The translations under genes and the position numbers were made by a program. Below are positions 2,253 through 59,464 of a stretch of DNA of 64,000 nt, one piece after another. The notes below the pieces were generated by a model. The model worked only from the letters and a program-made list of their open reading frames with translations, was not told the origin of the DNA and searched no databases. The DNA comes from Leptonemataceae bacterium (GTDB taxonomy: Bacteria > Spirochaetota > Leptospiria > Leptospirales > Leptonemataceae), in contig OZ245742.1 of NCBI GenBank assembly GCA_965227295.1, forward strand, positions 3,456,001 through 3,520,000, read 5' to 3'. Numbering within the stretch: position 1 is the first letter of the stretch; each line of letters opens with the position of its first letter.

Positions 2253-2260
2253 GCCTTCGA

Positions 2261-3445
2261 GACGCCGTTCCGTTGCGCCTCAGAAAGGATTAATGTACAC
2301 TGACCGCCACTTAAGCCACGATCCGGGGCGTGCTCGAACTACTTGAGCGTTTCCGGTAGTTCAAGAGCTGCGATTCGTTGCGTTGGCCGTGAAAAATAGA
2401 AAGTAAGTCCCCCGCGAACCCGCACCCGCTCCGCCCCGCGAATTGAGCGGGGCTCCGGGGTGCGGATTCGCTTGATGTGCACTTCCAATCTGTGAGGCTC
2501 AGGCACCGAGAACATACCAACGCGTTTCTTACGGCAAAGACGCCGTTCCGGTGCGCCTTACCACATTCCCCGGCATGACCTCCGTTCATCTGCTGGAACC
2601 AGCCGTGACCATAAAAGTGTGAATCCAAACTGGCCTTAACTTACATCACGATTCGGGGCGTGCTCAAACGGATGAAAAGTTTCCGGCAGTTCAAGAACTC
2701 TGGCTCGCGGCGTTTGCCGTGAGACACATAAGGTAAGTCGCGCAATAGGTAAGGGATTGATTTGGCTACGGCTTTGCGGGAGTTGTGGATTTTCGTTTCG
2801 TTAAGAATGCTGCGTTCGACCCGGACGCTGATTGTGCGACTCAGCTACCGAGGCGATTCTTACGGCAAAGACGCCGTTCCGGTGCGCCTTACCACGTTCC
2901 CCGGCATGACCTCCGTTCATCTGCTGGAACCAGCTGTACCCATAAAATCATTACTGTACACTGGCCGCCACTTACACTACGATTCGGGGCGTGCTCGAAC
3001 GAATAAAACTTACCGGTAGTTCAAGAGCTGCGGTTCGTGGCGGTTGCCGTGAGAAACACGAAGTAAGTCGCGGAATTGTGAAGGGCTTTTTTTTGCTACA
3101 GCTGAGCGGGAGTTGTGGATTTTCGTTTTGTTAGGAATGCTGCGTTCGACCCGGACGCTGATTGTGCGACTCAGCTACCGAGGCGATTCTTACGGCAAAG
3201 ACGCCGTTCCGGTGCGCCTTACCACGTTCCCCGGCATGACCTCCGTTCATCTGCTGGAACCAGCCGTACCCATAAAAGCCTTAATCCAAACTGGCCGCCA
3301 CTTACACCACGATTCGGGGTGCGCTCGAAAGAATAGAGTTTTGCGGTAGTTCAAGAGTCGCGGTTCGTCACGTTGGCTGTGAGAAACATAAAGTAAGCCG
3401 CAGCATCGTTCAGTCTTTTGTGGGCTACGGCTGAGCGGACTTGTG
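2261..3445 (+). repeat. Array A of the ~330-bp repeat (four core copies, first partial)
   Basis: Core GACGCCGTTCCG at 2261, 2539, 2870, 3200 (last two spacings 331 and 330). Confidence 0.95.
2414..2471. repeat. GC-rich nested hairpin element H1, copy 1, inside array A
   Basis: GCGAACCCGCACCC...GGGTGCGGATTCGC outer stem with inner GCCCCGC/GCGGGGC; second copy at 31079-31136. Confidence 0.85.
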
Positions 3446-3610
3446 CGGGATGTCTCCTGCATCGCCTGCGCTCGTCAAGATTGATGTAAGCAAACTTCGT
3501 GATGTTGGCTCGCGTCGGAAAATTAGAAGGTTGCGGCAAAGAACGAGGATGTTTTTTTGCACCGATGCGATGGGATGATCGTCGAAGGCATACGCTGCAC
3601 TGATAAAAAA

Positions 3611-4981
3611 ATGCCCGCAAAGAAAAAAGAAAAACCGAACCTCGACGAAGCCCTGGAAAACGACGACGCCGATGCTGTGCGGCGTTGTTTGCGCGACGGT
3701 GCCGATCCGAACTTCATCGCCGAAAACCGGCGCAGTCTCCCGTTCATTTGCGCGGCCGAAGAAAACAGCGATGCAGTGGTGCGAGCGCTCGTCGAAGGCG
3801 GGGCCGACATCAATCTCCCGGGCAAGAACGGGAACACCCCGCTCAGCAGAATGTGTGGCGCCTGGGGTCCCGCTCGCGTTACGGTCATGGAATTCGACGC
3901 GCTGAAAGCACGGATCCGGCTCCTCGTGGAACTCGGTGCCGATGTCAACGCCATCGGGAAAAACGATACGACGCCGCTGCTTGCTGCGATCCATGGGGCC
4001 GGCGGCCCCATCGTGGAGTTACTGCTCAATGAACTCGGTGCCGATCCGACCATGCGATCCTTCGGTGGAACGACACCCCTGATGTATGCCGCGCTCTATG
4101 AAGACGTGACCATGATCGACGCACTCGTTCGTTGCGGTTGTCCGCTCAACGCGACGAACGAAAACGGCATCAGCGCCCTGCACATCACGGCGATCACGAA
4201 CAATCCGGTGGCGGCCCGGGCCCTCCTCGGTTACGGTGCCGAAGCAAACCTCGCGGATCGATACGGCGCCACGCCGCACGACTACGCGGTGTTGTTCGAA
4301 CTTCCCGAACTCGCGGAAATTCTGCGCACGCCGGAGACACCGGCCGCCACGGAGGATCGACTCCGCTCCATTTGCGACAGGGCGCACCGCAAGTTTCGGG
4401 AGTATGTCCAATCAGAAGCTGAACGACTGCTGAGTCAGGATTATTTCGACGCCAATTTTGAGGCCGTCGTCACGCTTTTCGCGAATCAGTACTTTTCGAT
4501 GAACGATCTTACAGTCCGGCGTGTCTTTGATCCTCTCTGGCCGCAGTTTCTAAAACTCGTGCCGCCTTTTGCGGCGGGTCACTATGCGACTACAACCTTC
4601 GAATTCAAGTCCCAGGGCGGCGCCATCCTGGACTTTTTTTACGACAAAGAACCATTGCTGGACGTTGCGATTGCACACTACGAAAGGCTCGGCCTGGCAG
4701 AGTTCGAAGAGCTCGCCCATAAAGCCCGAAGCATCTACTACGAAAGTGTGGTCTCCAAAATAGAAGCACTGCGCCAACGCATGCGCGACGAATACCCCCG
4801 TGACGAGTACGTCTCCGGTGAGGACGCCGTCTATGAATGGTACGAGGAGGAAGACGGCGATATTCCGGAGGGGAGACTCTTTGACGATATCCGTTCGAAA
4901 ATGGAGGATCTGCACGACGCACCGGCCGCCATAGAAGCCCGCAAGAAAGCCTTCGAAGAATACCTGCGCGAAGAATCATAA
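3611..4981 (+). CDS. Ankyrin-repeat protein with C-terminal DUF4375/DMP19-like domain, copy 1
   Basis: Repeated GADxN, G-TPL and SALH ankyrin motifs; C-terminal GGAILDFF...AIAHYERLGL pattern; start placed at MPAKKKEK by comparison with paralogues. Confidence 0.85.
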   Translation: MPAKKKEKPNLDEALENDDADAVRRCLRDGADPNFIAENRRSLPFICAAEENSDAVVRALVEGGADINLPGKNGNTPLSRMCGAWGPARVTVMEFDALKARIRLLVELGADVNAIGKNDTTPLLAAIHGAGGPIVELLLNELGADPTMRSFGGTTPLMYAALYEDVTMIDALVRCGCPLNATNENGISALHITAITNNPVAARALLGYGAEANLADRYGATPHDYAVLFELPELAEILRTPETPAATEDRLRSICDRAHRKFREYVQSEAERLLSQDYFDANFEAVVTLFANQYFSMNDLTVRRVFDPLWPQFLKLVPPFAAGHYATTTFEFKSQGGAILDFFYDKEPLLDVAIAHYERLGLAEFEELAHKARSIYYESVVSKIEALRQRMRDEYPRDEYVSGEDAVYEWYEEEDGDIPEGRLFDDIRSKMEDLHDAPAAIEARKKAFEEYLREES

Positions 4982-4994
4982 ACAGGAGAAGAAC

Positions 4995-6356
4995 ATGCCT
5001 GAAGAAAAAGAAGAGCCGCCCAATCTCGACGATGCCCTGGAAAACGACGATGCCGATGCTGTGCGGCGTTGCCTGCGTGACGGTGCCGATCCGAATGCCA
5101 GGATTAAGTACGGACAGCTTCCGTTGACCAGCGCCGCACGGGAGAACAGCGAAGACGTGTTGCGAGCCCTCGTCGAAGGCGGTGCCGATATCAACCTGCC
5201 CGCCGCGGCTCCGCTGAGCGCGGTCTGCGAAAGCGGCCTGGTCCCCGTTCACTTCCAGAGACCGGGACTCGATGCGGTGGAAGCACGCATCCGACTGTTG
5301 GTCGAACTCGGAGCCGACGTCAACTTCACCGCACAGAACGTCGACCCGCCGGTCTTTTGCGCGCTTCACGGAACCGGAGGCTCCATCGTGGAGTTACTGA
5401 TCAACGAACTCGGCGCCGATCCCGCGGTGCAGTCCTACAACGGAACGACCGCTCTGATGCATGCCGCGATTTACGAGGACGTGGCGTTCATCGACGGTCT
5501 CGTTCGTTGCGGTTGTCCGCTCAACGCGACGAACGAAAACGGCATCAGCGCCCTGCACATCACGGCGATCACGAACAATCCGGTGGCGGCCCGGGCCCTC
5601 CTCGGTTACGGTGCCGAAGCAAACCTCGCGGATCGATACGGCGCCACGCCGCACGACTACGCGGTGTTGTTCGAACTTCCCGAACTCGCGGAAATTCTGC
5701 GCACGCCGGAGACACCGGCCGCCACGGAGGATCGACTCCGCTCCATTTGCGACAGGGCGCACCGCAAGTTTCGGGAGTATGTCCAATCAGAAGCGGAAAA
5801 CCTTCTGAGCACTCCGTATTTCGACGACCATTTTTTCAGCGCCATCGTGCACTTCGCGGATCTGTACTTCGCGATAAAAGGGATTACGATGCGCCATGTA
5901 TTTTCGAATCAGTGGCCGCAGTTCTTAAAACTCGTACCGCCCTTTGCAGCAGGTCACTACGCCACAACTACATTCGAATTCCTGACCCGGGACGGAAACA
6001 TCCTGCACTTTTTTTACGAGAAAGAGCCGTTGCTGGACGTTGCGATTGCATACTACGAAAGACTCGGCCTGGCAGAGTTCAAAGAACTCGCCCGCAATGC
6101 CCGGAGCATCTACTACGAAAGCGTGGTCTCCAGAGTAGAAGCACTGCGCCAACGCATGCGCGACGAATACCCCCGTGACGAGTACGTCTCCGGTGAGGAC
6201 GCCGTCTATGAATGGTACGAGGAGGAAGACGGCGATATTCCGGAGGATAAACTCTTCCGGGACATCCGTTCGAAAATGGGTCGCCTGTACGGTACACCCG
6301 CCGTCATCGAGGCTCGCAAAAAAGCCTACGAAGAATACCTGCGCGAAGGATCATAA
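4995..6356 (+). CDS. Ankyrin-repeat protein with C-terminal DUF4375/DMP19-like domain, copy 2
   Basis: Tandem paralogue of 3611-4981 (shared blocks offset by 1375 bp); AGGAG ribosome-binding site upstream. Confidence 0.85.
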   Translation: MPEEKEEPPNLDDALENDDADAVRRCLRDGADPNARIKYGQLPLTSAARENSEDVLRALVEGGADINLPAAAPLSAVCESGLVPVHFQRPGLDAVEARIRLLVELGADVNFTAQNVDPPVFCALHGTGGSIVELLINELGADPAVQSYNGTTALMHAAIYEDVAFIDGLVRCGCPLNATNENGISALHITAITNNPVAARALLGYGAEANLADRYGATPHDYAVLFELPELAEILRTPETPAATEDRLRSICDRAHRKFREYVQSEAENLLSTPYFDDHFFSAIVHFADLYFAIKGITMRHVFSNQWPQFLKLVPPFAAGHYATTTFEFLTRDGNILHFFYEKEPLLDVAIAYYERLGLAEFKELARNARSIYYESVVSRVEALRQRMRDEYPRDEYVSGEDAVYEWYEEEDGDIPEDKLFRDIRSKMGRLYGTPAVIEARKKAYEEYLREGS

Positions 6357-10760: not shown

Positions 10761-11528
10761 CTACCAGTCGATGTCCTCGGGCCGTTTTTTGGTTTTGTTG
10801 CGCTCCGAGCGTTCGATGCTGCCGTCGGTCATGTACAGGACACGATCCGCCATGCCCGCGATGGCGGCGTTGTGAGTGATGATTACGGTGGTGGTGCCGA
10901 GGTCCTTGTTGACCGCGGCCAGAGCACTGAGTACCACGCGACCGGTGGATTGATCCAGGGCGCCGGTGGGTTCGTCGCAGAACAATACCCGCGGTCGTTT
11001 TGCAATGCCCCGGGCGATGGCGACGCGTTGCTGTTCCCCGCCGGACATCTGGGCGGGGAAGTGATGCATGCGCTGTTCCAGTCCGACCAGGCGCAGCGCT
11101 TCTTCCGGTGACAGCGGATTCTCGACGACCTCCACGGCGAGGCGGACATTCTCGGCGGCCGTGAGCCCGGGGATGAGATTGTAAAACTGAAAGACGAAAC
11201 CGATGTGTTCCCGGCGATACTCGGTCAATTCCTGATCGCCCGCGGTATGCAGTGAACGTCCGGTACTTTCGATGTCGCCGCCGCTGCGAGGCTCGGGAGC
11301 GTAATAGACTTCTCCGCTTGTGGCCGTATCCAGGCCGCCCAGGATGTTGAGCAACGTGGACTTGCCGCTGCCGGATGCGCCGAGCAACACCACGAACTCG
11401 CCGGCGTGCAAGTCCAGATCCACGCCGCGGAGGGCCGCGACCTCGATCTCGCCCATATGATACGTTTTCGTGACACCGCGCGCCCGAAAGATGATCGGTG
11501 CCGCCGTTGCTGTTTTGCGTCGGGCCAC
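10761..11528 (-). CDS. ABC transporter ATP-binding protein (LolD/MacB-like)
   Basis: Walker [10 protein letters not shown], signature [13 protein letters not shown], Walker B/D-loop [10 protein letters not shown]-loop ITHN. Confidence 0.95.
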
Positions 11529-11579: not shown

Positions 11580-12686
11580 GCGACGGGAACTCAGCCGCAC
11601 AACCTGCGCCCGGGTCGAACGCGGCTACACACTTAATCTTTCTCAAGATCCGCCACGTACCGCAGCTCTTGAACTACCGGAAACGCTCAAGTAGTTCCCA
11701 CACGCCCCGAGTCGTGGTGTAAGTGACGGCCAGTGTACATTAGCCTTGTATGGGTACAGCTGGTTCCAGCAGATGAACGGAGGTCATGCCGGGGAGCATG
11801 GTAAGGCGCACCGGAACGGCGTCTTCACTTTAAGAAACGCTAAGGTAGCTGCGTCGCAAACCGACGTCCGGGTCGAACGCAGCATTCTTAACAAAACGAA
11901 AAACCACAACTCCCGCGGACCGTAGCCAAAAAGGCCCTCAACGCTTGCCGACTTACTTTATGTTTCTCACAGCCAACGTGACGAACCGCAGCTCTTGAAT
12001 TACCGGTAAGTTTTATTCGTTCGAGGACGCCCCGAATCGTAGTGTAAGTGACGGCCAGTGTACATTAAGCCTTGTATGGGTACAGCTGGTTCCAGCAGAT
12101 GAACGGAGGTCATGCCGGGGAGTGTGGTAAGGCGCACCGGAACGGCGTCTTCGTCGTAAGAAACGTTACGGTAGCTGAGTCGCAAACCGACGTCCGGGTC
12201 GAACGCAGCATTCTTAACAAAACGAAAAACCACAACTCCCGCGGACCGTAGCCAAAAAGGCCCCTCAACGCTTGCCGGCTTACTTTATGTTTCTCACAGC
12301 CAACGTGACGAACCGCAGCTCTTGAATTACCGGTAAGTTTTATTCGTTCGAGGACGCCCCGAATCGTAGTGTAAGTAGCGGCCAGTGTACATTAAGCCTT
12401 GTATGGGTACGGCTGGTTCCAGCAGATGAACGGAGGTCATTCCGGGGAATGTGGTAAGGCGCACCGGAACGGCGTCTTCTTCGCAAGAGTCGCCCGGGTA
12501 GCTGAGTCGCAAACCGACGTCCGGGTCGAACGCAGCATTCTTAACAAAACGAAAGTCCACAACTCCCGCAAAGCCGTAGCCAAAAAAAGCCCTTCACAAT
12601 TCCGCGACTTACTTCGTGTTTCTCGTGGCAAACGCAACGAATCGCAGCTCTTGAACTACCGGAGAGTTTTGATTCGTTCGAGCGCG
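11580..12686 (-). repeat. Array B of the ~330-bp repeat (three core copies plus a degenerate fragment at ~11580-11637)
   Basis: Reverse-complement core CCGGAACGGCGTC at 11811, 12137, 12464 (spacings 326, 327). Confidence 0.95.
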
Positions 12687-12695
12687 CATATGTGT

Positions 12696-13073
12696 TCAAC
12701 GTTTCACGCCCACGATCATTACGATCCGCGCAACGACATAGATGAAGAGGAACGCAAGAATCCCGAACACGATGACACGCAGGGCCGACACGGCGATGTC
12801 GTCCCAGAACTCGCTGTCTACCAGGAAGTAGCCCGGCTCGTCCTGCGCGCGCGGGCCGGCGTGGCACATGCAACCGAAACGCGTAAAGCGGCCCAGGCGT
12901 TGTGCGTTCGTTTCGCCGTCGCCGGAGTACAAAGCCGCGCAGTTTGCGCTGCATTGCGTTTCGAGATAAGGGTCCACGTAATATGCGGTGAGCGCAAAGT
13001 AGGCGGCGAACATACACGCGGCTCCGATGATCACCATGACGATGCCGATGCTGTTGAGTTGCGTGCGGGCCAT
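12696..13073 (-). CDS. Small two-TM protein with Cys-containing loop, unknown function
   Basis: Two hydrophobic segments flanking a loop with CSANC and GCMC; follows the TetR gene. Confidence 0.6.
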   Translation of the reverse strand: MARTQLNSIGIVMVIIGAACMFAAYFALTAYYVDPYLETQCSANCAALYSGDGETNAQRLGRFTRFGCMCHAGPRAQDEPGYFLVDSEFWDDIAVSALRVIVFGILAFLFIYVVARIVMIVGVKR

Positions 13074-23313: not shown

Positions 23314-23546
23314 TTGTGACCGGAGCGCCTCCTGAAACGAGGCGCAGAACAACCAGAGTTTTCGGCCGGAGCCGGGACGCAATCATTTTCAGAATCACGG
23401 GGCGGCAAGTCAGGAGCGTTTCCGGGAGCGCATCATCCCCGGCACAATCCCATCTCCGTGGTGGCCGGCCGATTTCCTTCGTCTTCCCGGGCGGGGTTCC
23501 AGGAATTTGAGTTTGCGTCTGCAGTCCGGGCCGCACGAAATCGTCC

Positions 23547-30636: not shown

Positions 30637-31282
30637 CAAGAACCCGGTTCGGTGCGTTTGCCGTGAAAAAAGGAGCAAATCGCAAAACGCTGAAGGGTCT
30701 TTTTTGGCTACGGCTCTTCGGAGTTGTGGATTTTCGTATTGCTGAGAATGCTGCGTTCGACCCGGACGCTAATTGTGCGACTCAGCTACCATAGCGTTTC
30801 CTGCGACGAAGACGCCGTTCCGGTGCGCCTTGCCACACTTCCCCGGCATGACCTCCGTTCATCGGCTGGAACCAGCCGTACCCAATAAAGTCTTAATCCA
30901 AACTGGCCTCAACTTACACCACGATTCGGGGCGTGTTCGAATGACCGAAAAGTTTTCGGTAGTTCAAGGCTTGTGGCTCGCGGCGTTTGCCGTGAAAAAA
31001 GGGAGTAAATCGCCGAACGTTAAGGTGGTTTTTTTTGCTACAGCTGAGCGGGAGTTGTGGATTTTCGTTTTGTAAGTCGCGAATCCGCACCCGCTCCGCC
31101 CCGCGGAGAGAGCGGGGCTGCGGGGTGCGGATTCGCTTCATGGATTTTCCAGGGAGAAGACGCCGTTCCGGTGCGCCTTACCACACTTCCCCGGCATGAC
31201 CTCCGATCATCTGCTGGAACCAGCCGTACCCAAAAAAGTCTTAATCCAAACTGGCCTCAACTTACACCACGATTCGGGGCGT
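30637..31282 (+). repeat. Array C of the ~330-bp repeat (two core copies, interrupted by H1)
   Basis: Core GACGCCGTTCCG at 30811 and 31159. Confidence 0.95.
31079..31136. repeat. Hairpin element H1, copy 2, inside array C
   Basis: GCGAATCCGCACCC...GGGTGCGGATTCGC perfect outer stem; matches 2414-2471. Confidence 0.85.
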
Positions 31283-31290
31283 CTGCGAAT

Positions 31291-32124
31291 TCAAACAAGA
31301 AACGGCACCGTCTTTTCGTAGAGCCAGTCGGGCATCTTTTTCTTGAGCGTTTCGTCGATGAAGTCGCGGCGATAGCGGGGCGAGAAGTGAATGAGATACA
31401 ACCGCTCCACGTCGCGCAACGCCTCGGCGTTCGCAACGATTTCGTCGAGATGAATGTGGCCCCACTGCCGCGCGCGTTCCACCGGGCGTTTGTCGTCAAT
31501 GAACGTGCACTCCAGAAACAGAATCTTCGACTGACGGACGATTTCGTTTTCCAGAAGAAACTCGATCTGCGTATCGCCGGAGAAGGTAATGTGCGGGACG
31601 ACGGCGTCGTAAAACATATCGTCGCGTTCTTTCTTGAGCCGCGCAATCTCCGGGCCGGGCAGATTCAGGAACTCCGGCTTGAGCTTGCGCGTGCGTTCGA
31701 AGATGGAGTAACCGTTGGACGGCACCCGATGCACGCTGCGCACGGCGCGAAACTTCAGGGTCCCGCTGAGATCGTACTCGCGATCGTAGTCCAGGGCGTG
31801 GACGTTGTAGGTCGCTTCGAAGTCTTCGATCTCGAACCACAGGCGGAGGATTTCTTTGAGCGGCCTTTCGACTTCCGGCGGCACGTAGATGTCCGCGGGC
31901 GGCAGGCGGCGCAGATTGCGTTGGGATACGTGATAGGGAATGCCGGCGCTGTGATCCAGGTGGCCGTGGGTCAGCAGGATCGTCGGCACCTCGACCAGCC
32001 GCGACGAACCCCGGCCGATGTCGAAACACAGCTTCAGCCGCGGCACATGCATGCACGTCTGCACTCCGCCCTCGCTAATGCCGAGGAAGTTGTAGGTCTT
32101 GTGTTTGTACTCCGCTAACTTCAT
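31291..32124 (-). CDS. MBL-fold hydrolase, short RNase Z (TM-type-like)
   Basis: GISEGGVQT, THGHLDH, HRVPSNGY, KLKPEF, SGDT, LECTF, GHIH, HFSPRY. Confidence 0.8.
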   Translation of the reverse strand: MKLAEYKHKTYNFLGISEGGVQTCMHVPRLKLCFDIGRGSSRLVEVPTILLTHGHLDHSAGIPYHVSQRNLRRLPPADIYVPPEVERPLKEILRLWFEIEDFEATYNVHALDYDREYDLSGTLKFRAVRSVHRVPSNGYSIFERTRKLKPEFLNLPGPEIARLKKERDDMFYDAVVPHITFSGDTQIEFLLENEIVRQSKILFLECTFIDDKRPVERARQWGHIHLDEIVANAEALRDVERLYLIHFSPRYRRDFIDETLKKKMPDWLYEKTVPFLV

Positions 32125-35303: not shown

Positions 35304-35410
35304 ATTCCGGTAAGGAAAACCGCGATGGACAGGGCGACCAGAAAATTTTGTTGCCGTGCGGCTTCCGTTGAAAACTCTGTCCTTCGCGCCGCAGGGTGTG
35401 GTGTCCCGGT

Positions 35411-35775: not shown

Positions 35776-38700
35776 TCACTCGTCCATGCGCAACGTCGCG
35801 TCGAGTTCGCTTTCTTCCCGCGTCCACATCACATGAATCGCCAGGCCGTGATTGTTTTCATCGCGACCCAGCTCGACCGCAGCCCCCGCCGATCTTGCAA
35901 GATCCTGAATCGCCTTCAGGCCTGCGCCGCGCGGCTCGGGCGAACCGCTCGTGCGCACCAGGCCCTCACCGTTGTCGATGATGCTCAGCCGCGTGCGTTC
36001 GCCGTCGGCCTCGTCCGTCAGAATGACACGCAGCTTCGTCGCCTGGCTGTGGCGAATCACGTTGTCCACCGCCTCCGCGGCGAGCCAGTAGAGATTCTGA
36101 AACGACGAACCCAAACGAGCGCTCAATTGTTTGAGCGCGTCGTCGTCGATGGTGGCCTGGAACTCCAGGTCAAGAGCGATGCGGGCGCGTTCGCCGAGTT
36201 TCGTGAGCCAGGCCTGCCAGTTTTCCGGCCGGCGCAAATCTCCGGCCGGCGCCGTTGCCGTCTCGCGATAGTCCCGGGCTTCGCGCGCCAGGTCCTCGGA
36301 CGTTTCGCCGCTCCCGCCGTCGTCCGTTTTGTGAATGATGCGATCCGACAATCGATGCAGGGCGTCGGCCGTGCGTAAGAAGCGGCGTTCCTGATAGTGC
36401 GTGACGTCCTTGAAGTGACGGATGCGCGCGCGGTGCAAACGGAGCTCGGCCGTGTTGCGCTCGAACTGCAGAGCCACCGCGATCAACGGCGATACATGAT
36501 TCAAGATGCGCACGCGTTTGTCGTCTTCGAAGGCTCTCGCATCCCGCGCCCCGAGAATCAGCAGGCCGATGCCCCTCTGGGATTCCATGAGCGGCAAAAT
36601 CAAAAAATGCTCCATGCCTCCCGCCGCCACGACTGCGTCGCCGGAGCGGCCGGCGTTTACGGCCGCGAAGATCGGATCGGGGAGGTCCGGGTCCGGCTGG
36701 CTGTCGTCCCCGGTGCTCAGGACCGGGCGCAGGGACGTCAATGCCTGGCCGAAGATGGTCGATTGCATGGGCACTCGCGCCCCGGCCGCGCCGGCCAGGG
36801 AGGTATCGTCGTGAAAACCGCCCTCGAAGATGAGGCTGTCGCCGTCTTCGCTCAGACGATAGACGACGACACGATCCAGGGGAATTTCCCCGGGCGTATG
36901 ATCTTTGAGATAGGCGAGCTTTTCGGTGAAGGCCGGTAAGTTTGAAACGGCGTTGGTTAAGTCCGCGAGCAATCGGCCTTCTTCCTGGGAGCCCTTCTCC
37001 CGGGCGACGGCGGCGCTCAGTTCTTCCTGGAGTTTCTTTTCTTTGGCGTACTCCTCGTTGAGGTCGGACTTCAACGAGCGGATGGTGTTCTGCAAATCGG
37101 CGATCGTGCGTTCCAGTTCGCGCTGCTTCTGGTTTTCTTCGCCCAGGCGATTGTTCAATCCGTGCACGTCTTCTTTGAGCGCGGCGATGGCCTGCTCCAG
37201 GCGACTCTCGCGTTCGCGGCGTTTGCCCACATCCTGGCGGAGCCGCGCAATCTCTTCGCGCGCCTCGCGCAGATTGTTCTGGAGTTCGCTGATCTCCCGG
37301 GTCTGGCCTTCGCTCTTCTGATTGAGGTCGCGGAGATTTCCCGTGCGCTCTTCGATCTGCGTGCGCAACGCGGCTTCCACGCGGCGTTGTTCCTCGGCTT
37401 CGTTTTCGAGGCGTGAACGTTCCTGACGCAGTTGGCCCAGATCACGTTGCAGGGCCTCAATGCGATTCTCATGCCCGGCGATGGTTTGATCGCGCTGCTG
37501 GATTTGCGCGTCGCGCTGCTGCACGGCTTCGTTGAGTTCGTTCTCCCGGCGTTCGGCCGCGCTCTTGATTTTCTCCAGTTCCGCGGCGTGTTCGCGTTGC
37601 AGGCTTTGCGTTTGTTCGTTCAGCCGTTCGATCTCGGCTTCCCGGCGTGCGGCAGTTTCTTTGAGTTCGCGGACGCTGCCGCGTTCGGTTTGTAGCGCGT
37701 TCGTGGTGCTTTCCAGCTCCGCACGCGCCTCGTTTCGTTCGCTCTCGATTCGTTGCAAGCGTTCGTTTAGTTCGGACGTGCTCTCTTTGTGCTGCTGTTC
37801 GCGGGTTGCGGCTTCCTGCTTGAGCGCCTCGATGCTGGCGTTGAGCTGCGCTTCGGTTTCGCGGGCCCCGGCGCGCTGGCGTTCCGTGGTCTCCGTGAGG
37901 GAGTTGACCTTTTGTTTTAGTTGATAGATGGTATCGTGGTAATCGGTCTCTTTTTGTTCGATGGTACGGCGGGCCTGCTCCAGGTTCGCCGCGAGTTCGG
38001 CGCTCTTCTTGCGTTCTTCTTCCAGGCCGCGTTCCATTTCGGCGCCCTGGCGTTCCAGGGCTTCGTTCTTCGTGGCGAGCTGCCGGCGCAGGGCTTCCAG
38101 TTGTTGCGTCTGGATGTTTGAATGATCGCGCAGTTCCTCGATGTTCTTGTCCCGGGCGGCGATCTCGTTTCGGGCCGTTTCCAGTTCCTGGTTCGCCCCG
38201 GACGTACGTTCCCGGGCCTTGCTTAGCTTGTCTTCAGCTTCGGTTAATCCCTTGCGCAGGTCGGCGATGTTCTGCTCGCGTTCCTGAATTTCTCGCGCGT
38301 ATTCGTTGTTCGCCTTGTTTGCGTCGGCGGTCGTTTGTTCGAGGGCCTGCTTCGTACGCTGCAGCTCTTCCCGGACGCTGCGCAGCGCGTCGTTGCTCTG
38401 CTCCGCGGCCGTCTTTTGCTCCGCTTCCAGTTTTTCCCGGGCCTGCTTCGCCGCGGCGAGATTCTTTTCCGACGCCGCCAGTTGGTCCTGTAACCGGCGG
38501 ACTTCGTCCCGTTGTTGATCCAGTTCGCCGCGACGTTTTTCCAGCTCTTCGTTCAGTAGCTCACGTTCGGCATCCACGTCGCCCATGGAAGTCCGCAGGC
38601 GTTCGGTTTCCGCGGCGTGTTCTTTGCGCAGATTTTCCCGGAGTTCGGTGAGACTGCGGTCCTTATCCGCGGCGGCTTCTTCGCGGCTGCGCTGGAGGTT

Positions 38701-40170
38701 CTGTTCCAGCACCTGGACTTTCGTTTCGAGGGATTTGCGTTGTTCTTCCAGGGCCCGGCGTTCGTCCTCACGTTCTTTGTCGGCCTGCTCGAGTTTTGCG
38801 GCGTACTCCCGGCTCACCTCACCGGCGCTCGCCTCACGGGCCTTCGCCAGGTGTTCTTCCTGTTCCTTGCGGAGGGCCGCGAGTCGTTCCTCGTGCTCTT
38901 TCTGTAACTGCGCCAGCTTTTGCTCGTGCTCGTCGCGTTCGTCCCGGCGTCCGGCGCGTTCTTCTTCCAGTGTGCTTTCCAGGCCGCGAATCTTTTGGTT
39001 GCGTTCTTCGGCGGAGCCGAGTTCTTCCCGGGCCGCGTCGAGTTCCTGGCGGAGTTGTTCCGAGCTTTTTTCCGCCCCTTCCAGTTTTTCGCGCAAACCG
39101 TCGCGTTCCGCCTCGAGTTCTTTGCGGATCGTGTACATGTCCCCGGTCTGTTCTTCGAGGACGGCGATGCGTGCTTCCCGCTCCTGTATCAACTGTTGCT
39201 GTTCTTCGGCGGCCCGGCGGTGTTCGGCGCGCAAATCCTCCAGGGCTTTGCTCCGTTCTTGCTCCGCCTCGGATTGCAGTCGCGCTTCCAGTTCGCCGCG
39301 TTCTTTCGTATGATCGGCCGCGGCTTCCGCCAGGCGCCGCTCCAGTTCTTTTTCCGCGGCGGCGCTGCTTTCTTCTAACTTCTTCTCGCCGGACTTTACG
39401 GCGGCGTCCGCTTCTTTGATGCGGGCGGCCGCCTGCTTGATTTCCCGGTCGCGCCAGTGAGCGGCCTGGCGCAGGGCCGGGGCCCGCAGCGCGGAAGCGA
39501 ATCCCCGGGCCACTTCCAGGTCCGAATCGATGTAGCGCGGGCGCGGATGGATCAGTGCCACGGCCAGGACGCCTGCCGGAGCGTCGGCGCCGGGAAGCGG
39601 AACGTAAAGCCAGGAGACTTCAGCGTTGCGAATGTCTTCTTCGAACTCTTCGGTAAAAAAAGCGGCGTCCTCTTCGTTGAGATCGGCGGTGGAAACCGGG
39701 CGGCCGTCGCGGATAAGGTAGGCCGGCAGCGGAGCACTTTCGTCCAGGATGCCGGGTCCGTCCGGGAGTTTCTGAAAAGAGTGCACCGGGCGGGTCGCGA
39801 TGTCTTCGTCGGCGTCGTAGAACAGCACGCCCTCGCTCACGTCACCGGAGGCGACGCCGCTCAGCCGCAACTCGTTCTTCGCGGTGGTCGCGGCGTAAAA
39901 GTTCAGCGCACTGAAGCCGGGAATATCGTACAGGGTTTGCGCGACCCGGGCAAAGACCTCGGCGTCCGCAAGCGACGGATCAAAACACGAGAGCAGTCGT
40001 TCGCGCAAATCCGAGGCGCGACCGGTGGCCGGCTTGCGCGCCGCGGCCTTTTTTTTCGCGGCCGGTTTGGCCGCGGTCTTTTTGGCGGCGACCTTCTTTT
40101 TGGCGGCCGGTTTTGCGGCCGTCTTTTTCGGCGCGGCCTTTTTTTTAGCGGCAGTCTTCTTTTTAGCCAT
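35776..40170 (-). CDS. Giant sensor-kinase-like protein: Lys/Ala tail, GAF-like, long coiled coil, GAF, HisKA_3-like and HATPase
   Basis: AKKKTAAKKK N-terminus; roughly 800 aa E/R/Q/A/L heptad region; RTADALHR H-box-like; EAVDNVIRH, DNGEG, GAGL boxes. Confidence 0.8.
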   Translation of the reverse strand: MAKKKTAAKKKAAPKKTAAKPAAKKKVAAKKTAAKPAAKKKAAARKPATGRASDLRERLLSCFDPSLADAEVFARVAQTLYDIPGFSALNFYAATTAKNELRLSGVASGDVSEGVLFYDADEDIATRPVHSFQKLPDGPGILDESAPLPAYLIRDGRPVSTADLNEEDAAFFTEEFEEDIRNAEVSWLYVPLPGADAPAGVLAVALIHPRPRYIDSDLEVARGFASALRAPALRQAAHWRDREIKQAAARIKEADAAVKSGEKKLEESSAAAEKELERRLAEAAADHTKERGELEARLQSEAEQERSKALEDLRAEHRRAAEEQQQLIQEREARIAVLEEQTGDMYTIRKELEAERDGLREKLEGAEKSSEQLRQELDAAREELGSAEERNQKIRGLESTLEEERAGRRDERDEHEQKLAQLQKEHEERLAALRKEQEEHLAKAREASAGEVSREYAAKLEQADKEREDERRALEEQRKSLETKVQVLEQNLQRSREEAAADKDRSLTELRENLRKEHAAETERLRTSMGDVDAERELLNEELEKRRGELDQQRDEVRRLQDQLAASEKNLAAAKQAREKLEAEQKTAAEQSNDALRSVREELQRTKQALEQTTADANKANNEYAREIQEREQNIADLRKGLTEAEDKLSKARERTSGANQELETARNEIAARDKNIEELRDHSNIQTQQLEALRRQLATKNEALERQGAEMERGLEEERKKSAELAANLEQARRTIEQKETDYHDTIYQLKQKVNSLTETTERQRAGARETEAQLNASIEALKQEAATREQQHKESTSELNERLQRIESERNEARAELESTTNALQTERGSVRELKETAARREAEIERLNEQTQSLQREHAAELEKIKSAAERRENELNEAVQQRDAQIQQRDQTIAGHENRIEALQRDLGQLRQERSRLENEAEEQRRVEAALRTQIEERTGNLRDLNQKSEGQTREISELQNNLREAREEIARLRQDVGKRRERESRLEQAIAALKEDVHGLNNRLGEENQKQRELERTIADLQNTIRSLKSDLNEEYAKEKKLQEELSAAVAREKGSQEEGRLLADLTNAVSNLPAFTEKLAYLKDHTPGEIPLDRVVVYRLSEDGDSLIFEGGFHDDTSLAGAAGARVPMQSTIFGQALTSLRPVLSTGDDSQPDPDLPDPIFAAVNAGRSGDAVVAAGGMEHFLILPLMESQRGIGLLILGARDARAFEDDKRVRILNHVSPLIAVALQFERNTAELRLHRARIRHFKDVTHYQERRFLRTADALHRLSDRIIHKTDDGGSGETSEDLAREARDYRETATAPAGDLRRPENWQAWLTKLGERARIALDLEFQATIDDDALKQLSARLGSSFQNLYWLAAEAVDNVIRHSQATKLRVILTDEADGERTRLSIIDNGEGLVRTSGSPEPRGAGLKAIQDLARSAGAAVELGRDENNHGLAIHVMWTREESELDATLRMDE

Positions 40171-43403: not shown

Positions 43404-43536
43404 ACTCCGAGGACCGAGGAGCCGAGGTGAAGAATGAAGAGAACCATCAGACGAAGCGAAGAAAGCTGTCTTAGCTCGAAAGCCGATCGCCTGCGCAGTC
43501 TCTCCCCAAATTCCTCGGTCCCTCGCTCCTCGGAGT
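43404..43536. repeat. REPIN-like inverted doublet between convergent genes
   Basis: ACTCCGAGGACCGAGGAGCCGAGG ... CCTCGGTCCCTCGCTCCTCGGAGT. Confidence 0.85.
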
Positions 43537-49103: not shown

Positions 49104-49209
49104 ACTCCGAGGACCGAGGTCCCGAGATTTAGAACGGAGGGCTTTCGTCGCCGGCACGCGCTCAGCGTACGCTTGCTCTCTATAAACTCGGTCCCTCGGC
49201 CCTCGGAGT
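49104..49209. repeat. REPIN-like inverted doublet
   Basis: ACTCCGAGGACCGAGGTCCCGAG ... CTCGGTCCCTCGGCCCTCGGAGT. Confidence 0.85.
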
Positions 49210-49217
49210 AAGCAATA

Positions 49218-50189
49218 GTGTCCCGCTTAGAATCACTTCTCGGAACGTTTACGAATCTCTTTCCCCTCTGGGTGCTCGTCGCGGGGGTCGCGGGTTTTCT
49301 CTACCCGCCGTCCGTTACCTGGATGAGCGGCTCGTTGATCACGATCGGCCTGGCAGTGATCATGCTGGGCATGGGCCTATCCCTCCAGGCCGCCGATTTC
49401 CGGCGTGTCTTCGAACAACCGCGCCGCGTGTTCGTCGGCGTGGCGCTCCAGTATACGGTGATGCCCCTGGCCGGATACAGCTTCGCCGTGCTGTTCGAGC
49501 TCCCCGACGAGTTTGCCGCCGGGCTGATCCTCGTTGCCTGCTGTCCGGGCGGCACCGCTTCGAACGTGATCAGTTTCCTGGCCCGGGCCGACCTGTGTCT
49601 CTCCGTGACGATGACCGCCGTGTCGACGCTGCTTGCCGCGCTGCTCACACCGACCCTTACGTTGCTGCTGGTCGGCGATCGCCTGGAAGTGAATCCCCTC
49701 GGCCTCTTTCTGGACACCGCCACGGTAGTCCTCTTGCCGGTGTTCGCGGGTTTGTTGTTGAATCATTACTTAACTTCGACGGCGCAGGTGTTAAAGCCGT
49801 TCGCGCCGCCGGTGGCGGTCATTGCCATCGCGCTGATCGTGGGGTCGGTGCTGGGCGCCAAACGTGAGGCCGTAATTGAATCCGGATTGCAGTTAGCGGC
49901 CGCCATCGTCGTTTTTCATCTTTGCGGCTTCGTTCTGGGATACGTACTCGGCCGATTGGTCGCGGGGGACGAGCCGGCCGCGCGCACCATCGGCATCGAA
50001 GTGGGCATGCAGAACTCCGGCCTCGGCGTGGACCTCGCGCGTAAAAATTTCGCGGGCACGCTCGCCGATGTCCCCGGTGCCATCTCCGCGATGACGCATT
50101 GCATCTTAGGCAGCTTCGCGGCGGCGCTGTGGAGATCGGGAGGGGAAGAAACAAACTCCGAGGCCCGAGGTACCGAGATTGAATCTTAG
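49218..50189 (+). CDS. Bile acid:sodium symporter (BASS) family transporter
   Basis: MLGMGL, QYTVMP, CPGGTASNV, IEVGMQNSGL. Confidence 0.92.
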   Translation: MSRLESLLGTFTNLFPLWVLVAGVAGFLYPPSVTWMSGSLITIGLAVIMLGMGLSLQAADFRRVFEQPRRVFVGVALQYTVMPLAGYSFAVLFELPDEFAAGLILVACCPGGTASNVISFLARADLCLSVTMTAVSTLLAALLTPTLTLLLVGDRLEVNPLGLFLDTATVVLLPVFAGLLLNHYLTSTAQVLKPFAPPVAVIAIALIVGSVLGAKREAVIESGLQLAAAIVVFHLCGFVLGYVLGRLVAGDEPAARTIGIEVGMQNSGLGVDLARKNFAGTLADVPGAISAMTHCILGSFAAALWRSGGEETNSEARGTEIES

Positions 50190-50264
50190 AGAGCGATCAT
50201 AACCTGCTCACGGACTGACTTCGCTCACTCACCTAAAAAAACTCGGCCCCTCGGTCCTCGGAGT
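50155..50264. repeat. REPIN-like inverted doublet overlapping the BASS 3' end
   Basis: ACTCCGAGGCCCGAGGTACCGAG ... CTCGGCCCCTCGGTCCTCGGAGT. Confidence 0.85.
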
Positions 50265-56675: not shown

Positions 56676-56829
56676 AAAGAAACCAATATATTATTACGAA
56701 CGATTTCGCAAGGTCTCCGACGTGAACGGTTCGCTGTGCGGGGCGATCGGTACGCGATGATGAAGGATCACGCATGCTGTCGATTTTTTCTACTTGAGAT
56801 GCGGCCGGAGTTCCGCAACGCTGCAATCC

Positions 56830-58803: not shown

Positions 58804-58876
58804 TTCACTCACCGGAACGGCGTCTTCGTCGCAAGAAACGTTGCGGGAGTTGAGTCGCAAGCCGACGTCCGGTGTC

Positions 58877-58919
58877 GGCAAGGCCCCACTTGTTGGGGCC
58901 GCGGCAGTTGGTTCCCCAC
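58877..58919. repeat. Hairpin insert H2, copy 1
   Basis: GGCAAGGCC-CCA-CTTGT-TGG-GGCCGCGGCAGTTGGTTCCCCAC. Confidence 0.85.
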
Positions 58920-59143
58920 TGGCAGTATTCTTAACAAAACGAAAATCCACAACTCCCGCTTCGCTGTAGCAAAAAAAGTCCCTTCAACATTGCGCAACTT
59001 ACCTTGTTTGTCTCCCGGTAAACGCCGCGAAACACGGCTCTTGAACTACCTGAAACGTTTTATTCGTTCGCTTACGCCCCGAATCGTGGCGTAAGTTAAG
59101 GCCAGTGTGGATTAACACTTTTATGGGTACAGCTGGTTCCAGG

Positions 59144-59185
59144 GGCAAGGCCACGCTTGTCGTGGCCGCGGCAGTTGTTCCCCAC
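59144..59185. repeat. Hairpin insert H2, copy 2
   Basis: GGCAAGGCC-ACG-CTTGT-CGT-GGCCGCGGCAGTTGTTCCCCAC. Confidence 0.85.
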
Positions 59186-59464
59186 CCACGGAGGTTATGC
59201 CGGGGAATGTGGTAAGGCGCACCGGAACGGCGTCTTCGTCGCAAGAAACGTTGCGGGAGCTGAGTCGCAACCCCGCGTCCGGGTCGAACGCAGTATTCTT
59301 AACAAAACGAAAATCCACAACTCCCGCTCAGCCGTAGCCATAAAAACCCCTTCACCATTGCGCAACTTACCTTGTGTGTCTCACGGCAAACGCTGCGAAA
59401 CACGGCTCTTGAACAACCGGAAGCGTTCGGTTTTCCTTTGAGATGGCGTCTTCGTCGTTCATTC

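What the first reader, a model, noticed from the sequence alone, without database searches (positions are those of the whole stretch)
2261..3445. Satellite-like ~330-bp repeat family in tandem arrays with phase-shifted ends
Seen: one 326-331 bp unit occurs about 11 times in four intergenic head-to-tail arrays (2261-3445 +, 11580-12686 -, 30637-31282 +, 58810-59459 -), about 3.5 kb of the window. Blocks such as GACGCCGTTCCGGTGCGCCTTACCAC..CCCCGGCATGACCTCCGTTCATCTGCTGGAACCAGC and GGGAGTTGTGGATTTTCGTTTTGTTAAGAATGCTGCGTTCGACCCGGACG are strongly conserved and alternate with variable blocks. The arrays begin and end at several different phases of the unit, and I see no terminal inverted repeats, target duplications, unique spacers or transposase. 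Inference: this does not fit a MITE, a CRISPR array or an integron. Phase-shifted tandem copies would be expected from a circular or rolling-circle intermediate, either a non-autonomous HUH-mobilised element or reverse-transcribed copies of a circular structured RNA analogous to eukaryotic retrozymes. This is my best candidate for an undescribed system.
Basis: partly seen in the sequence, partly recalled or inferred. Interest (0 to 1): 0.88.

Follow-up and report, generated by a model that had tools for sequence, protein, structure and literature searches.

The report
Dispersed 330-bp tandem repeat family
A bacterial chromosome segment carries four intergenic arrays of one non-coding 330-bp repeat that fills the space behind genes; it is real and undescribed, but nothing supports a circular-RNA or rolling-circle origin.

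Summary
One 326-331 bp unit occurs about 11 times in four head-to-tail intergenic arrays, about 3.6 kb or 5.6% of the window.

- **Unit anatomy.** Each unit has a ~75-bp core that is 97-100% identical in all copies. The rest is 72-90% identical. It ends in a terminator-like hairpin followed by a T tract.
- **Not coding.** Variable sites show no codon periodicity.
- **Not a structured RNA.** Folding z-scores lie between -0.46 and +1.07 on both strands, linear or circular. No covariation was found, and no Rfam family matched even at E<=10.
- **No mobility genes.** None of 46 window ORFs is a transposase, reverse transcriptase, HUH enzyme or integrase.
- **Array ends.** They are not randomly phased: 7 of 8 fall in two phase windows (p about 0.04). 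Every end facing a gene's 3' end lies 1-8 nt from the stop codon.
- **Recombination.** Units are recombinant mosaics, and other small repeats have inserted into the arrays.
- **Distribution.** ORFs called over other copies occur, among 15 billion proteins, only on one 5.94-Mb contig.

My best reading is a lineage-restricted DNA-level interspersed satellite, maintained by unequal crossing-over and gene conversion. The retrozyme-like reading is essentially excluded. HUH or circle-mediated spread remains untested, because my one scan of other genomes failed.

The parts
2260..3445 (+). Array A, about 3.5 units. The first unit carries an internal deletion (phase 83 to 139) and a foreign 65-nt palindromic insert. 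The array starts 7 nt after the stop of ORF 1560-2252 and ends at phase ~310, 111 nt before ORF 3557-4981.
11584..12687 (-). Array B, about 3.4 units. It starts 8 nt after the stop of ORF 12696-13073 (-). The last unit has lost its hairpin and T tract (phase ~265 to ~3). It ends 55 nt before the ABC ATPase ORF 10761-11528 (-). It sits inside a co-oriented TetR / small ORF / ABC / FtsX / HlyD gene row.
30637..31289 (+). Array C, about 2 units with a 65-nt palindromic insert. It is antisense to both flanking genes. Its right end lies 1-8 nt from the stop of ORF 31291-32124 (-). Diverged unit-like sequence may reach back to about 30579.
58810..59457 (-). Array D, about 2 units, between convergent genes. 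It starts 7 nt after the stop of ORF 59465-61975 (-) with a unit deleted from phase ~69 to ~184. It ends 6 nt from the stop of ORF 56794-58803 (+). It carries two ~45-nt hairpin inserts.
2807..3136 (+). Representative complete unit (330 bp), taken in the phase that ends with the T tract. This defines the phase numbering used in the report.
2868..2942 (+). Ultra-conserved C-rich core of the representative unit, 97-100% identical among copies.
2923..2934 (.). 12-bp palindrome (5 + 2 + 5) at the centre of the core. Exact in 8 copies.
3096..3132 (+). Terminator-like hairpin (8-10 pairs, several G-U) followed by a T-rich tract. It is present in every copy that keeps this region, with 95% of cells paired.
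2413..2477 (.). Foreign ~65-nt palindromic element inserted in array A, replacing part of a unit. A second copy lies at 31078-31142 in array C, and a partial copy at 1423-1465.
   Evidence: (D17, D19)
58877..58921 (-). Foreign ~45-nt hairpin element inserted in array D. A second copy lies at 59143-59187.

Best explanation
This is a lineage-restricted, non-coding repeat that works at the DNA level. It resembles a bacterial satellite or long-unit minisatellite dispersed over intergenic regions.

**Unit.** Each 326-331 bp unit has two halves. The first is C-rich with an almost invariant ~75-bp core that contains a 12-bp palindrome. The second is more variable and G/T-rich, and ends in a terminator-like hairpin plus T tract.

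**Shown.**
- The arrays occupy the space behind genes right up to the stop codon.
- Units are mosaics produced by exchange between copies, both within and between arrays.
- One pair of neighbouring units is a recent duplication.
- The arrays accumulate deletions and insertions of other small repeats.

**Inferred.**
- Copy number changes by unequal crossing-over or slippage, and sequence is homogenised by gene conversion.
- New arrays are seeded by recombination that breaks the unit preferentially at the two borders of the conserved half.
- The core is kept constant because it is the site a protein uses, either a recombinase or a DNA-binding protein recognising the palindrome.
- Any benefit to the host is that of a 3'-end module, through the terminator-like hairpin behind co-oriented genes.

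No RNA circle, reverse transcription or encoded protein is needed.
For: **Repeat and anatomy:**

**Non-coding.**
- Variable columns by codon position in the longest shared frame are 22/21/23 (chi-square p 0.96), and 6/7/9 in the core.
- Copies differ by 1-nt indels that shift the frame.
- None of 12 repeat ORFs reaches a Pfam cut-off at E<=1.

**No RNA structure.**
- 20 folds (5 units, 2 strands, linear and circular) give z from -0.46 to +1.07.
- 28 alignment windows give z from -1.4 to +1.16.
- RNAalifold finds 3 of 71 and 1 of 71 compensated pairs, with covariation terms +0.64 and -1.04.
- A hand-built long-range model is reached by most shuffles.

**Recombination.**
- B1/B2 are 96% identical, against 73-88% for the other pairs of long units.
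- A2/A3 are 100% identical in phases 1-60 but 76-83% elsewhere.
- The partial first unit of array B is closest to a unit of array A, at 91%.
- Of 250 minor alleles, 79 are shared between arrays.
- 398 of 780 site pairs show all four gametes.

**Decay and insertions:**

**Placement.**
- All five ends that face a gene 3' end lie 7, 8, 7, 6 and 1-8 nt from the stop codon.
- The three ends that face gene starts keep 55-111 nt or more.

**End clustering:** 7 of 8 ends fall in two 35-nt phase windows; 773 of 20000 random sets do as well.

**Terminator-like hairpin:** 95% of cells are paired, against 35-61% when the partners are slid. It is found in each array by the scan.

**Restricted range.** All 9 true protein-level matches, among 15 billion proteins, lie on one 5,938,550-bp contig.
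Against: - No enzyme, binding protein or transcript has been identified, so the proposed role of the core is inference only.
- The end clustering is modest (p about 0.04) and the window width was chosen after seeing the data.
- Array C is antisense to both neighbours, so a 3'-end or terminator role cannot hold for every array.
- The hairpin is weak (many G-U pairs), and its support does not exceed the shuffle control (124 of 500 shuffles reach it).
- Recombination alone does not easily explain how homologous arrays reached four unrelated loci.
- Gene callers placed at least 9 ORFs on the forward frame of other copies and none on the reverse frame I searched. This could hint at coding potential that 14 rows cannot reveal.
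- Only about 11 copies from one 64-kb window were analysed, so power to detect covariation or selection is low.
Confidence: 0.5

Rival explanations
1. A non-autonomous mobile element moved in trans by an enzyme encoded elsewhere in the genome. Candidates are an HUH endonuclease (IS200/IS605, IS91 or RAYT type) or a site-specific recombinase. It would move through a single-stranded or circular DNA intermediate and insert next to existing copies or behind genes, so that head-to-tail arrays build up.
For: - Homologous arrays lie at four unrelated loci.
- Ends cluster at the two borders of the conserved half.
- A short 6-bp inverted match flanks that half in array B units, and one D unit lacks exactly that half.
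- A small hairpin with two compensated stem variants sits at the hypervariable junction, phases 43-56 (read).
- The core is conserved, as expected for a recognition site.
Against: - The 46 window ORFs include no HUH, transposase, integrase or reverse transcriptase.
- There are no fixed common ends, target duplications or conserved subterminal hairpins.
- DNA and RNA folds are no more stable than shuffles.
- The small junction hairpin is broken in 4 of 8 distinct copies (read).
- The 6-bp inverted match could be chance.
Confidence: 0.15
2. Each unit is a transcription unit or cis-regulatory RNA. It could be an sRNA gene with its own promoter and terminator, as in tandem sRNA arrays. Or it could be an attenuator in which the core pairs alternatively with the 3' block (anti-terminator) or leaves it free to form the terminator.
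For: - A terminator-like hairpin plus U tract is conserved on one strand in all copies that keep the region.
- The two most conserved blocks can pair with each other: a 10-bp helix with 96% of cells paired, in which all 7 one-sided changes keep pairing through G-U, and only on the forward strand.
- The same 3' block can instead form the terminator.
- Arrays A and B lie upstream of co-oriented genes.
Against: - No promoter is recognisable, though the scan finds none anywhere in 19 kb, so this is uninformative.
- No thermodynamic or covariation support.
- No Rfam match.
- Arrays C and D face convergent gene ends, not gene starts.
- Three to four attenuators in series have no precedent that I know of (recalled).
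Confidence: 0.15
3. The units are genes for a small protein of 35-100 aa. The shared peptide frame runs through the core, and the repeats form a tandem gene family, for example of toxin-like peptides as in type I toxin-antitoxin repeats.
For: - An open frame of 77-85 codons is present in 4 of the window's units.
- Annotators called ORFs in the same frame on at least 9 other copies, one spanning two units.
- None was found for the reverse frame.
Against: - No third-position excess of variable sites.
- Frame-shifting 1-nt indels fall on both sides of the core, one copy has an in-frame stop, and one is interrupted by an insertion.
- No Pfam family.
- No relatives outside one contig among 15 billion proteins.
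- The peptide is not hydrophobic, unlike type I toxins (read; the family trait is recalled).
Confidence: 0.05
4. DNA copies of a circular structured RNA, analogous to retrozymes or viroids, made by reverse transcription of rolling-circle transcripts.
For: Only the unit length (about 330 nt) and the tandem head-to-tail arrangement with differing end phases.
Against: - No hammerhead, twister, HDV-like or any other Rfam match at gathering score or at E<=10.
- z-scores near 0 for circular and linear folds of both strands.
- No conserved structure.
- No reverse transcriptase in the window.
- Ends cluster rather than scatter.
Confidence: 0.02

Closest known systems
Neisserial intergenic mosaic elements (NIMEs: dRS3 plus RS arrays); passages of PMC1797815 read
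   Same: - Non-coding intergenic arrays in which a conserved short module alternates with more variable modules.
- The arrays are dynamic and recombinogenic.
- They host opportunistic insertions of other repeats.
- The conserved module is proposed there to be a recombinase site.
   Different: - A NIME has a 20-bp dRS3 with a 6-bp inverted repeat, flanking over 100 unrelated RS families of 19-214 bp.
- Here one 330-bp family repeats as a whole.
- The dRS3 motif is absent (0 matches at up to 1 mismatch).
- No associated phage recombinase is known here.
Mycobacterial interspersed repetitive units (MIRUs; properties recalled, only search listings seen)
   Same: Minisatellite-like tandem arrays of one family, dispersed over many intergenic sites, including between genes of one operon, with variable copy number.
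   Different: - MIRU units are about 46-101 bp (recalled), against 326-331 bp here.
- MIRUs carry short ORFs overlapping the ends of flanking genes (recalled). Here the arrays stop 1-8 nt short of the stop codons and show no coding signal.
REP/BIME elements of enterobacteria and pseudomonads (recalled)
   Same: Intergenic, often just behind stop codons, clustered in arrays, thought to act on mRNA 3' ends and to be moved by a trans-acting HUH enzyme (RAYT).
   Different: - REPs are about 35-bp stable palindromes.
- This unit is ten times longer and folds no better than shuffled sequence.
- No RAYT lies in the window.
Eukaryotic satellite DNA and retrozymes (recalled)
   Same: Unit length of a few hundred bp, head-to-tail arrays at several loci, mosaic units shaped by unequal exchange and conversion.
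   Different: - This is a bacterial chromosome, and the arrays have only 2-3.5 units.
- No hammerhead ribozyme or stable RNA fold.
- No reverse transcriptase nearby.
Long direct repeats of E. coli and other tandem type I toxin-antitoxin loci; tandem sRNA arrays such as NsiR1 of cyanobacteria (recalled)
   Same: Tandem intergenic units of a few hundred bp, each with a terminator.
   Different: Those units encode a conserved small hydrophobic peptide or a defined sRNA with its own promoter. Here there is no coding periodicity, no hydrophobic ORF and no recognisable promoter.

Membership tests
MITE | Terminal inverted repeats at fixed common ends | tested here: not met
   Array ends differ in phase. 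Inside a unit there are only short interior inverted matches of 9-17 nt. There is a 6-bp inverted match at the borders of the conserved half (read).
MITE | Target-site duplication flanking the insert | tested here: not met
   No direct duplication is visible at any of the 8 junctions printed.
CRISPR array | Short repeats separated by unique spacers; cas genes nearby | tested here: not met
   The whole 330-bp period is homologous between copies. No Cas family was found in 46 ORFs.
Integron cassette array | Integrase gene next to the array; unrelated cassettes bounded by attC hairpins | tested here: not met
   No integrase lies in the window. The variable halves are homologous to one another. 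No stable hairpin was found. An attC model was not run.
Retrozyme / viroid-like circular RNA | Self-cleaving ribozyme motif | tested here: not met
   Rfam at gathering score over the whole window gives 3 tRNAs only. Array A at E<=10 gives two chance-level hits.
Retrozyme / viroid-like circular RNA | Unusually stable rod-like or branched fold | tested here: not met
   z-scores range from -0.46 to +1.07 for 5 units, both strands, linear and circular.
Retrozyme / viroid-like circular RNA | Circular RNA of unit length in cells | not testable with these tools
   Needs RNA-seq or divergent RT-PCR.
HUH-mobilised elements (IS200/IS605-derived, REP/RAYT, IS91) | Conserved subterminal hairpins and fixed cleavage sites at the ends | tested here: inconclusive
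   Ends cluster in two phase windows. A small hairpin at phases 43-56 shows two compensated variants but is broken in 4 of 8 distinct copies (read). No stable DNA hairpin was found.
HUH-mobilised elements (IS200/IS605-derived, REP/RAYT, IS91) | Cognate HUH gene in the same genome | not testable with these tools
   None was found among 46 ORFs of the window. The rest of the genome was not available, and the one genome scan failed.
Any Rfam RNA family | Score at or above the family's gathering threshold | tested here: not met
Type I toxin-antitoxin repeat (LDR-like) | Conserved small hydrophobic ORF under purifying selection | tested here: not met
   No codon periodicity. ORFs are polar or basic and are broken by indels and a stop.
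NIME | dRS3 20-bp inverted-repeat motif between modules | tested here: not met
   0 matches at up to 1 mismatch. The motif was taken from PMC1797815.
NIME | Intergenic arrays alternating conserved and variable modules, with opportunistic insertions | tested here: met
Interspersed minisatellite (MIRU-like) | One repeat family in tandem arrays at several intergenic loci | tested here: met
Interspersed minisatellite (MIRU-like) | Unit of about 46-101 bp with ORFs overlapping the ends of flanking genes (recalled definition) | tested here: not met
   The unit is 326-331 bp. Arrays stop 1-8 nt from stop codons. No coding signal.
Intrinsic terminator | G+C-containing hairpin followed directly by a T/U tract | tested here: met
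   The consensus scan finds it in every array. 95% of cells are paired. The stem is weak (3-4 G-C pairs) and its function is untested.

The most novel reading that the evidence does not exclude
A true bacterial satellite DNA that spreads between loci. Recombination between neighbouring units releases circular monomers or multimers, or a rolling-circle enzyme copies them. A site-specific enzyme that recognises the invariant core then re-inserts them behind genes. This would explain homologous arrays at unrelated sites, breakpoints concentrated at the borders of the conserved half, and the unit that lacks exactly that half.
Probability: 0.12. Interest if true: 0.8.

Novelty: new variant of a known kind. 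Interest (0 to 1): 0.5.

Why it matters
Bacterial interspersed repeats known so far are mostly short, such as REP, ERIC, MIRU, Correia and NIME modules. A 330-bp unit that forms arrays at four loci in 64 kb, 5.6% of the sequence, is unusual for a bacterial chromosome. So are its nearly invariant core and its placement hard against stop codons.

If the same density holds across the genome, this would be one of the largest non-coding repeat loads in a bacterium. It would also be a tractable case for three questions:
- how satellite-like DNA is seeded at new sites
- what keeps a 75-bp non-coding, unstructured block constant
- whether such arrays serve as 3'-end modules

If it proves to be passive recombination debris, it still matters for annotation. 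At least 9 spurious ORFs have been called on it, and it can mislead assembly.

Tried and rejected
1. **Search of other genomes.** A profile of the unit found nothing beyond the 19-mer in any of the 77. The scan therefore says nothing about relatives, and the window's own genome was not recovered.

2. **Plasmid and phage collections.** blastn with a whole unit found no match.

3. **Protein-level proxy.**
   - The forward-frame ORF gave 4 hits by word search.
   - It gave 7 hits by exhaustive HMMER. I treat one of these, a 1380-aa protein at E 7.8e-4, as chance.
   - The reverse-frame ORF gave none.

4. **Promoter search.** No sigma-70 consensus sites occur in the arrays, but none occur in 19 kb of the window either. 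This is uninformative. A 10-mer shared upstream of two tRNA genes is not in the units at up to 1 mismatch.

5. **Long-range helix model.** My first structure string was out of register for two helices. After correction the model pairs 78% of cells but does not beat the shuffles.

6. **Atlas look-up.** The unnamed ORF abutting array A returned only generic membrane-protein clusters.

7. **Literature.** Four searches found no description of a comparable 300-bp-class dispersed tandem repeat in bacteria. These were word searches of open-access text only.

8. **Calls answered with parameter errors** and repeated with corrected input: 36 and 54.

9. **Considered from sequence reading only and dropped.** DnaA-box, sigma-54 and ECF promoter resemblances. 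Each was a partial match in variable positions.
Full report
**Observation**

The repeat is real.
- Tandem Repeats Finder reports a 330-bp period at 2515-3401 (2.7 copies, 86% matches) and a 327-bp period at 11655-12682 (3.1 copies, 90%).
- The repeat finder links four loci through many direct and inverted families.
- A blastn of one unit against the window gives 15 matches, all inside those four loci.

With natural arrays as references the limits are:
- A 2260-3445 (+)
- B 11584-12687 (-)
- C 30637-31289 (+)
- D 58810-59457 (-)

This is about 3.6 kb, about 11 units and 5.6% of the window. The 19-mer that opens the conserved core occurs 9 times exactly and once with one mismatch, against 0.01 expected. 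A 12-bp palindrome in the core occurs 8 times exactly. All arrays are intergenic.

**Anatomy of the unit**

I number the unit so that it ends with its T tract (unit 2807-3136).
- Phases 61-135 are 97-100% identical in all copies.
- Phases 300-330 and 1-20 are about 90-96% identical.
- The rest is 72-90% identical.
- 140 of 330 columns are invariant.
- The first half is C-rich (G-C skew down to -0.5) and the second half G/T-rich (up to +0.67).
- Near the end of each unit a hairpin of 8-10 pairs, many of them G-U, is followed by a T-rich tract. The consensus scan finds it in every array. 95% of alignment cells pair, against 35-61% when the partners are slid, though shuffles reach the observed value 124 times in 500.

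**Not protein-coding**

Frames of 77-85 codons are open in four units. Against coding:
- Variable columns fall 22/21/23 on codon positions 1/2/3 of that frame, and 6/7/9 in the core.
- Copies differ by 1-nt indels on both sides of the core.
- One copy has an in-frame stop, and one is interrupted by an insertion.
- None of 12 repeat ORFs reaches any Pfam cut-off, even when listing to E<=1.

**Not a structured RNA, as far as 14 rows can show**
- Rfam at gathering score finds only three tRNAs in the window.
- Array A searched at E<=10 gives two chance-level hits.
- Five units folded on both strands, as linear and as circular molecules, give z-scores from -0.46 to +1.07 against dinucleotide shuffles.
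- Twenty-eight 70-column alignment windows give z from -1.4 to +1.16 against column shuffles.
- RNAalifold of seven units finds 3 of 71 (forward) and 1 of 71 (reverse) compensated pairs.

One point in favour of an RNA reading should be told. The two most conserved blocks can pair. This is a 10-bp helix between the core and the 3' block, with 96% of cells paired, and all 7 one-sided changes keep pairing through G-U on the forward strand only. The same 3' block can alternatively form the terminator-like hairpin. The whole nested model pairs 78% of cells but is matched by most shuffles. I therefore count it as a lead, not a result.

**Surroundings**

Forty-six ORFs were scanned against Pfam. They are ordinary chromosomal genes:
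- ankyrin paralogues
- a TetR / small ORF / ABC ATPase / FtsX / HlyD row
- a disulphide oxidoreductase
- a metallo-beta-lactamase-fold protein
- an acyl-CoA synthetase
- a 7TMR-DISM phosphatase
- peptidases and histidine kinases

There is no transposase, integrase, HUH enzyme, reverse transcriptase or Cas protein.

Array orientation relative to neighbours:
- Arrays A and B lie between co-oriented genes, in the sense orientation.
- C lies between two genes of the other strand.
- D lies between convergent genes.

**Array ends**

In unit phase:
- A runs from about 58-62 to about 310.
- B runs from about 180 to about 44.
- C runs from about 214 to 185-193. Diverged unit-like sequence may push its start back to about 170.
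- D runs from about 52 to 78.

Seven of eight ends fall in phases 44-78 or 170-200, the two borders of the conserved half. In a simulation, 773 of 20000 random sets are covered as well by two 35-nt windows. The window width was chosen after seeing the data, so this is suggestive only.

Internal deletions also touch these places. The first D unit lacks phases about 69-184, which is exactly the conserved half.

The positional rule is more striking. Each of the five ends that faces a gene's 3' end lies 7, 8, 7, 6 and 1-8 nt from the stop codon. The three ends facing gene starts keep 55 nt, 68 nt and at least 111 nt. Another small repeat family in the window also begins a few bases behind stop codons, so this may be a habit of the genome.

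**Dynamics**
- Neighbouring units B1 and B2 are 96% identical, while other pairs of long units are 73-88%.
- A2 and A3 are identical over phases 1-60 but 76-83% elsewhere.
- The partial first unit of B is closest to a unit of A, at 91%.
- Of 250 minor alleles, 148 are singletons, 23 are shared within one array and 79 are shared between arrays.
- 398 of 780 pairs of informative sites show all four gametes.

This is the signature of repeated exchange between copies within and between arrays, plus at least one recent local duplication.

The arrays also decay:
- Three units carry deletions.
- A 65-nt palindromic element has replaced part of a unit in A and in C.
- A 45-nt hairpin element sits twice in D.

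**Distribution**

My only scan of the genome collection failed. Plasmids and phages hold nothing similar.

As a proxy I searched the translated forward frame:
- The word-index search found 4 proteins.
- Exhaustive HMMER over 1.84 billion representatives found 7, one of them a likely chance hit.
- With cluster mates that makes 9 repeat-derived ORFs, all on a single 5,938,550-bp contig without names.
- The reverse frame found nothing.

The family therefore looks confined to one sequenced genome. Those ORFs show further variants. One frame stays open through two units. Three share an N-terminal stretch that I infer, from the protein sequences only, to reflect a 17-nt deletion at phase 55-71.

**Interpretation**

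The simplest account that fits all results is a DNA-level, lineage-restricted interspersed satellite.
- *Shown:* arrays change by duplication, exchange, deletion and insertion, and they occupy all dispensable space behind genes.
- *Inferred:* something that acts on DNA keeps the core constant. I propose a protein that binds the palindrome, or a recombinase whose action would also explain the preferred breakpoints. The hairpin and T tract may give the arrays a neutral or useful role as 3'-end modules.

I put 0.5 on this. The rivals are:
- a non-autonomous element moved in trans (0.15)
- sRNA or attenuator units (0.15)
- a small-protein gene family (0.05)
- a retrozyme-like origin (0.02)

The remainder is left for something not thought of.

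**Comparison with known systems**

It works most like the non-coding intergenic arrays of Neisseria (NIMEs). There a conserved site alternates with variable modules, arrays are recombinogenic, and other repeats insert opportunistically (passages of PMC1797815). It is not a member, because the dRS3 motif is absent and the whole 330-bp period is one family.

It also resembles mycobacterial MIRUs and REP/BIME clusters in placement (recalled), but differs in unit length, lack of palindromic stability and lack of ORF overlap.

It fails the defining tests for MITE, CRISPR, integron, retrozyme, type I toxin-antitoxin repeats and every Rfam family.

Four word searches of the open literature found no description of a comparable element. 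I saw only listings for those, and they cover open-access text only.

**Verdict**

This is a real, unusual and apparently undescribed repeat family. It is best filed as a new variant of bacterial interspersed intergenic repeats. Whole-genome mapping of copies and a transcript map are the steps that would settle it.

Noticed in passing
window 2413-2477, 31078-31142, partial 1423-1465: A ~65-nt G+C-rich palindromic element, two copies 91% alike. Both full copies sit inside 330-bp arrays and replace part of a unit. A partial copy lies at the end of ORF 589-1455 (D17/D19).
   Followed up: partly
window 58877-58921 and 59143-59187 (- strand): A ~45-nt hairpin element inserted twice in array D, once in the invariant core and once after the T tract.
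   Followed up: partly
window 32139, 43404-43536, 49104-49209, 50155-50264: A 16-mer occurs 7 times, against 0.10 expected. It forms three inverted pairs 106-133 bp apart plus one solo copy. These are MITE-like or REP-doublet-like intergenic elements. Two begin about 10 nt behind the stop codons at 43393 and 49094 (D16).
   Followed up: partly
window 3557-4981, 4995-6356, and about 6361 onward: Tandem paralogous ankyrin-repeat genes, 78% DNA identity at a spacing of 1375-1384 bp. The start of a third copy follows. The second carries a weak DMP19-like C-terminal match (D5, D6, D14).
   Followed up: no
window 23354-23363 (-) and 35370-35379 (+): An identical 10-mer lies 32 and 41 nt upstream of two tRNA genes and may be a promoter element. 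The sigma-70 consensus scan finds 0 sites in 19 kb where shuffles give 3.6, so promoters here do not fit the E. coli consensus.
   Followed up: partly
window 35776-40170 (-), 40040-40152: A 1464-aa GAF / histidine-kinase-like protein whose gene gives the region an A-T skew of -0.3 to -0.4. Imperfect 15-nt and 45-nt tandem repeats lie at its 5' end.
   Followed up: no
proteins P0001-P0009 (one 5,938,550-bp contig): Public annotation carries at least 9 hypothetical proteins that are translations of this repeat. One spans two units, and one fuses a repeat to the start of a real 238-aa protein. These are probable annotation artefacts.
   Followed up: partly
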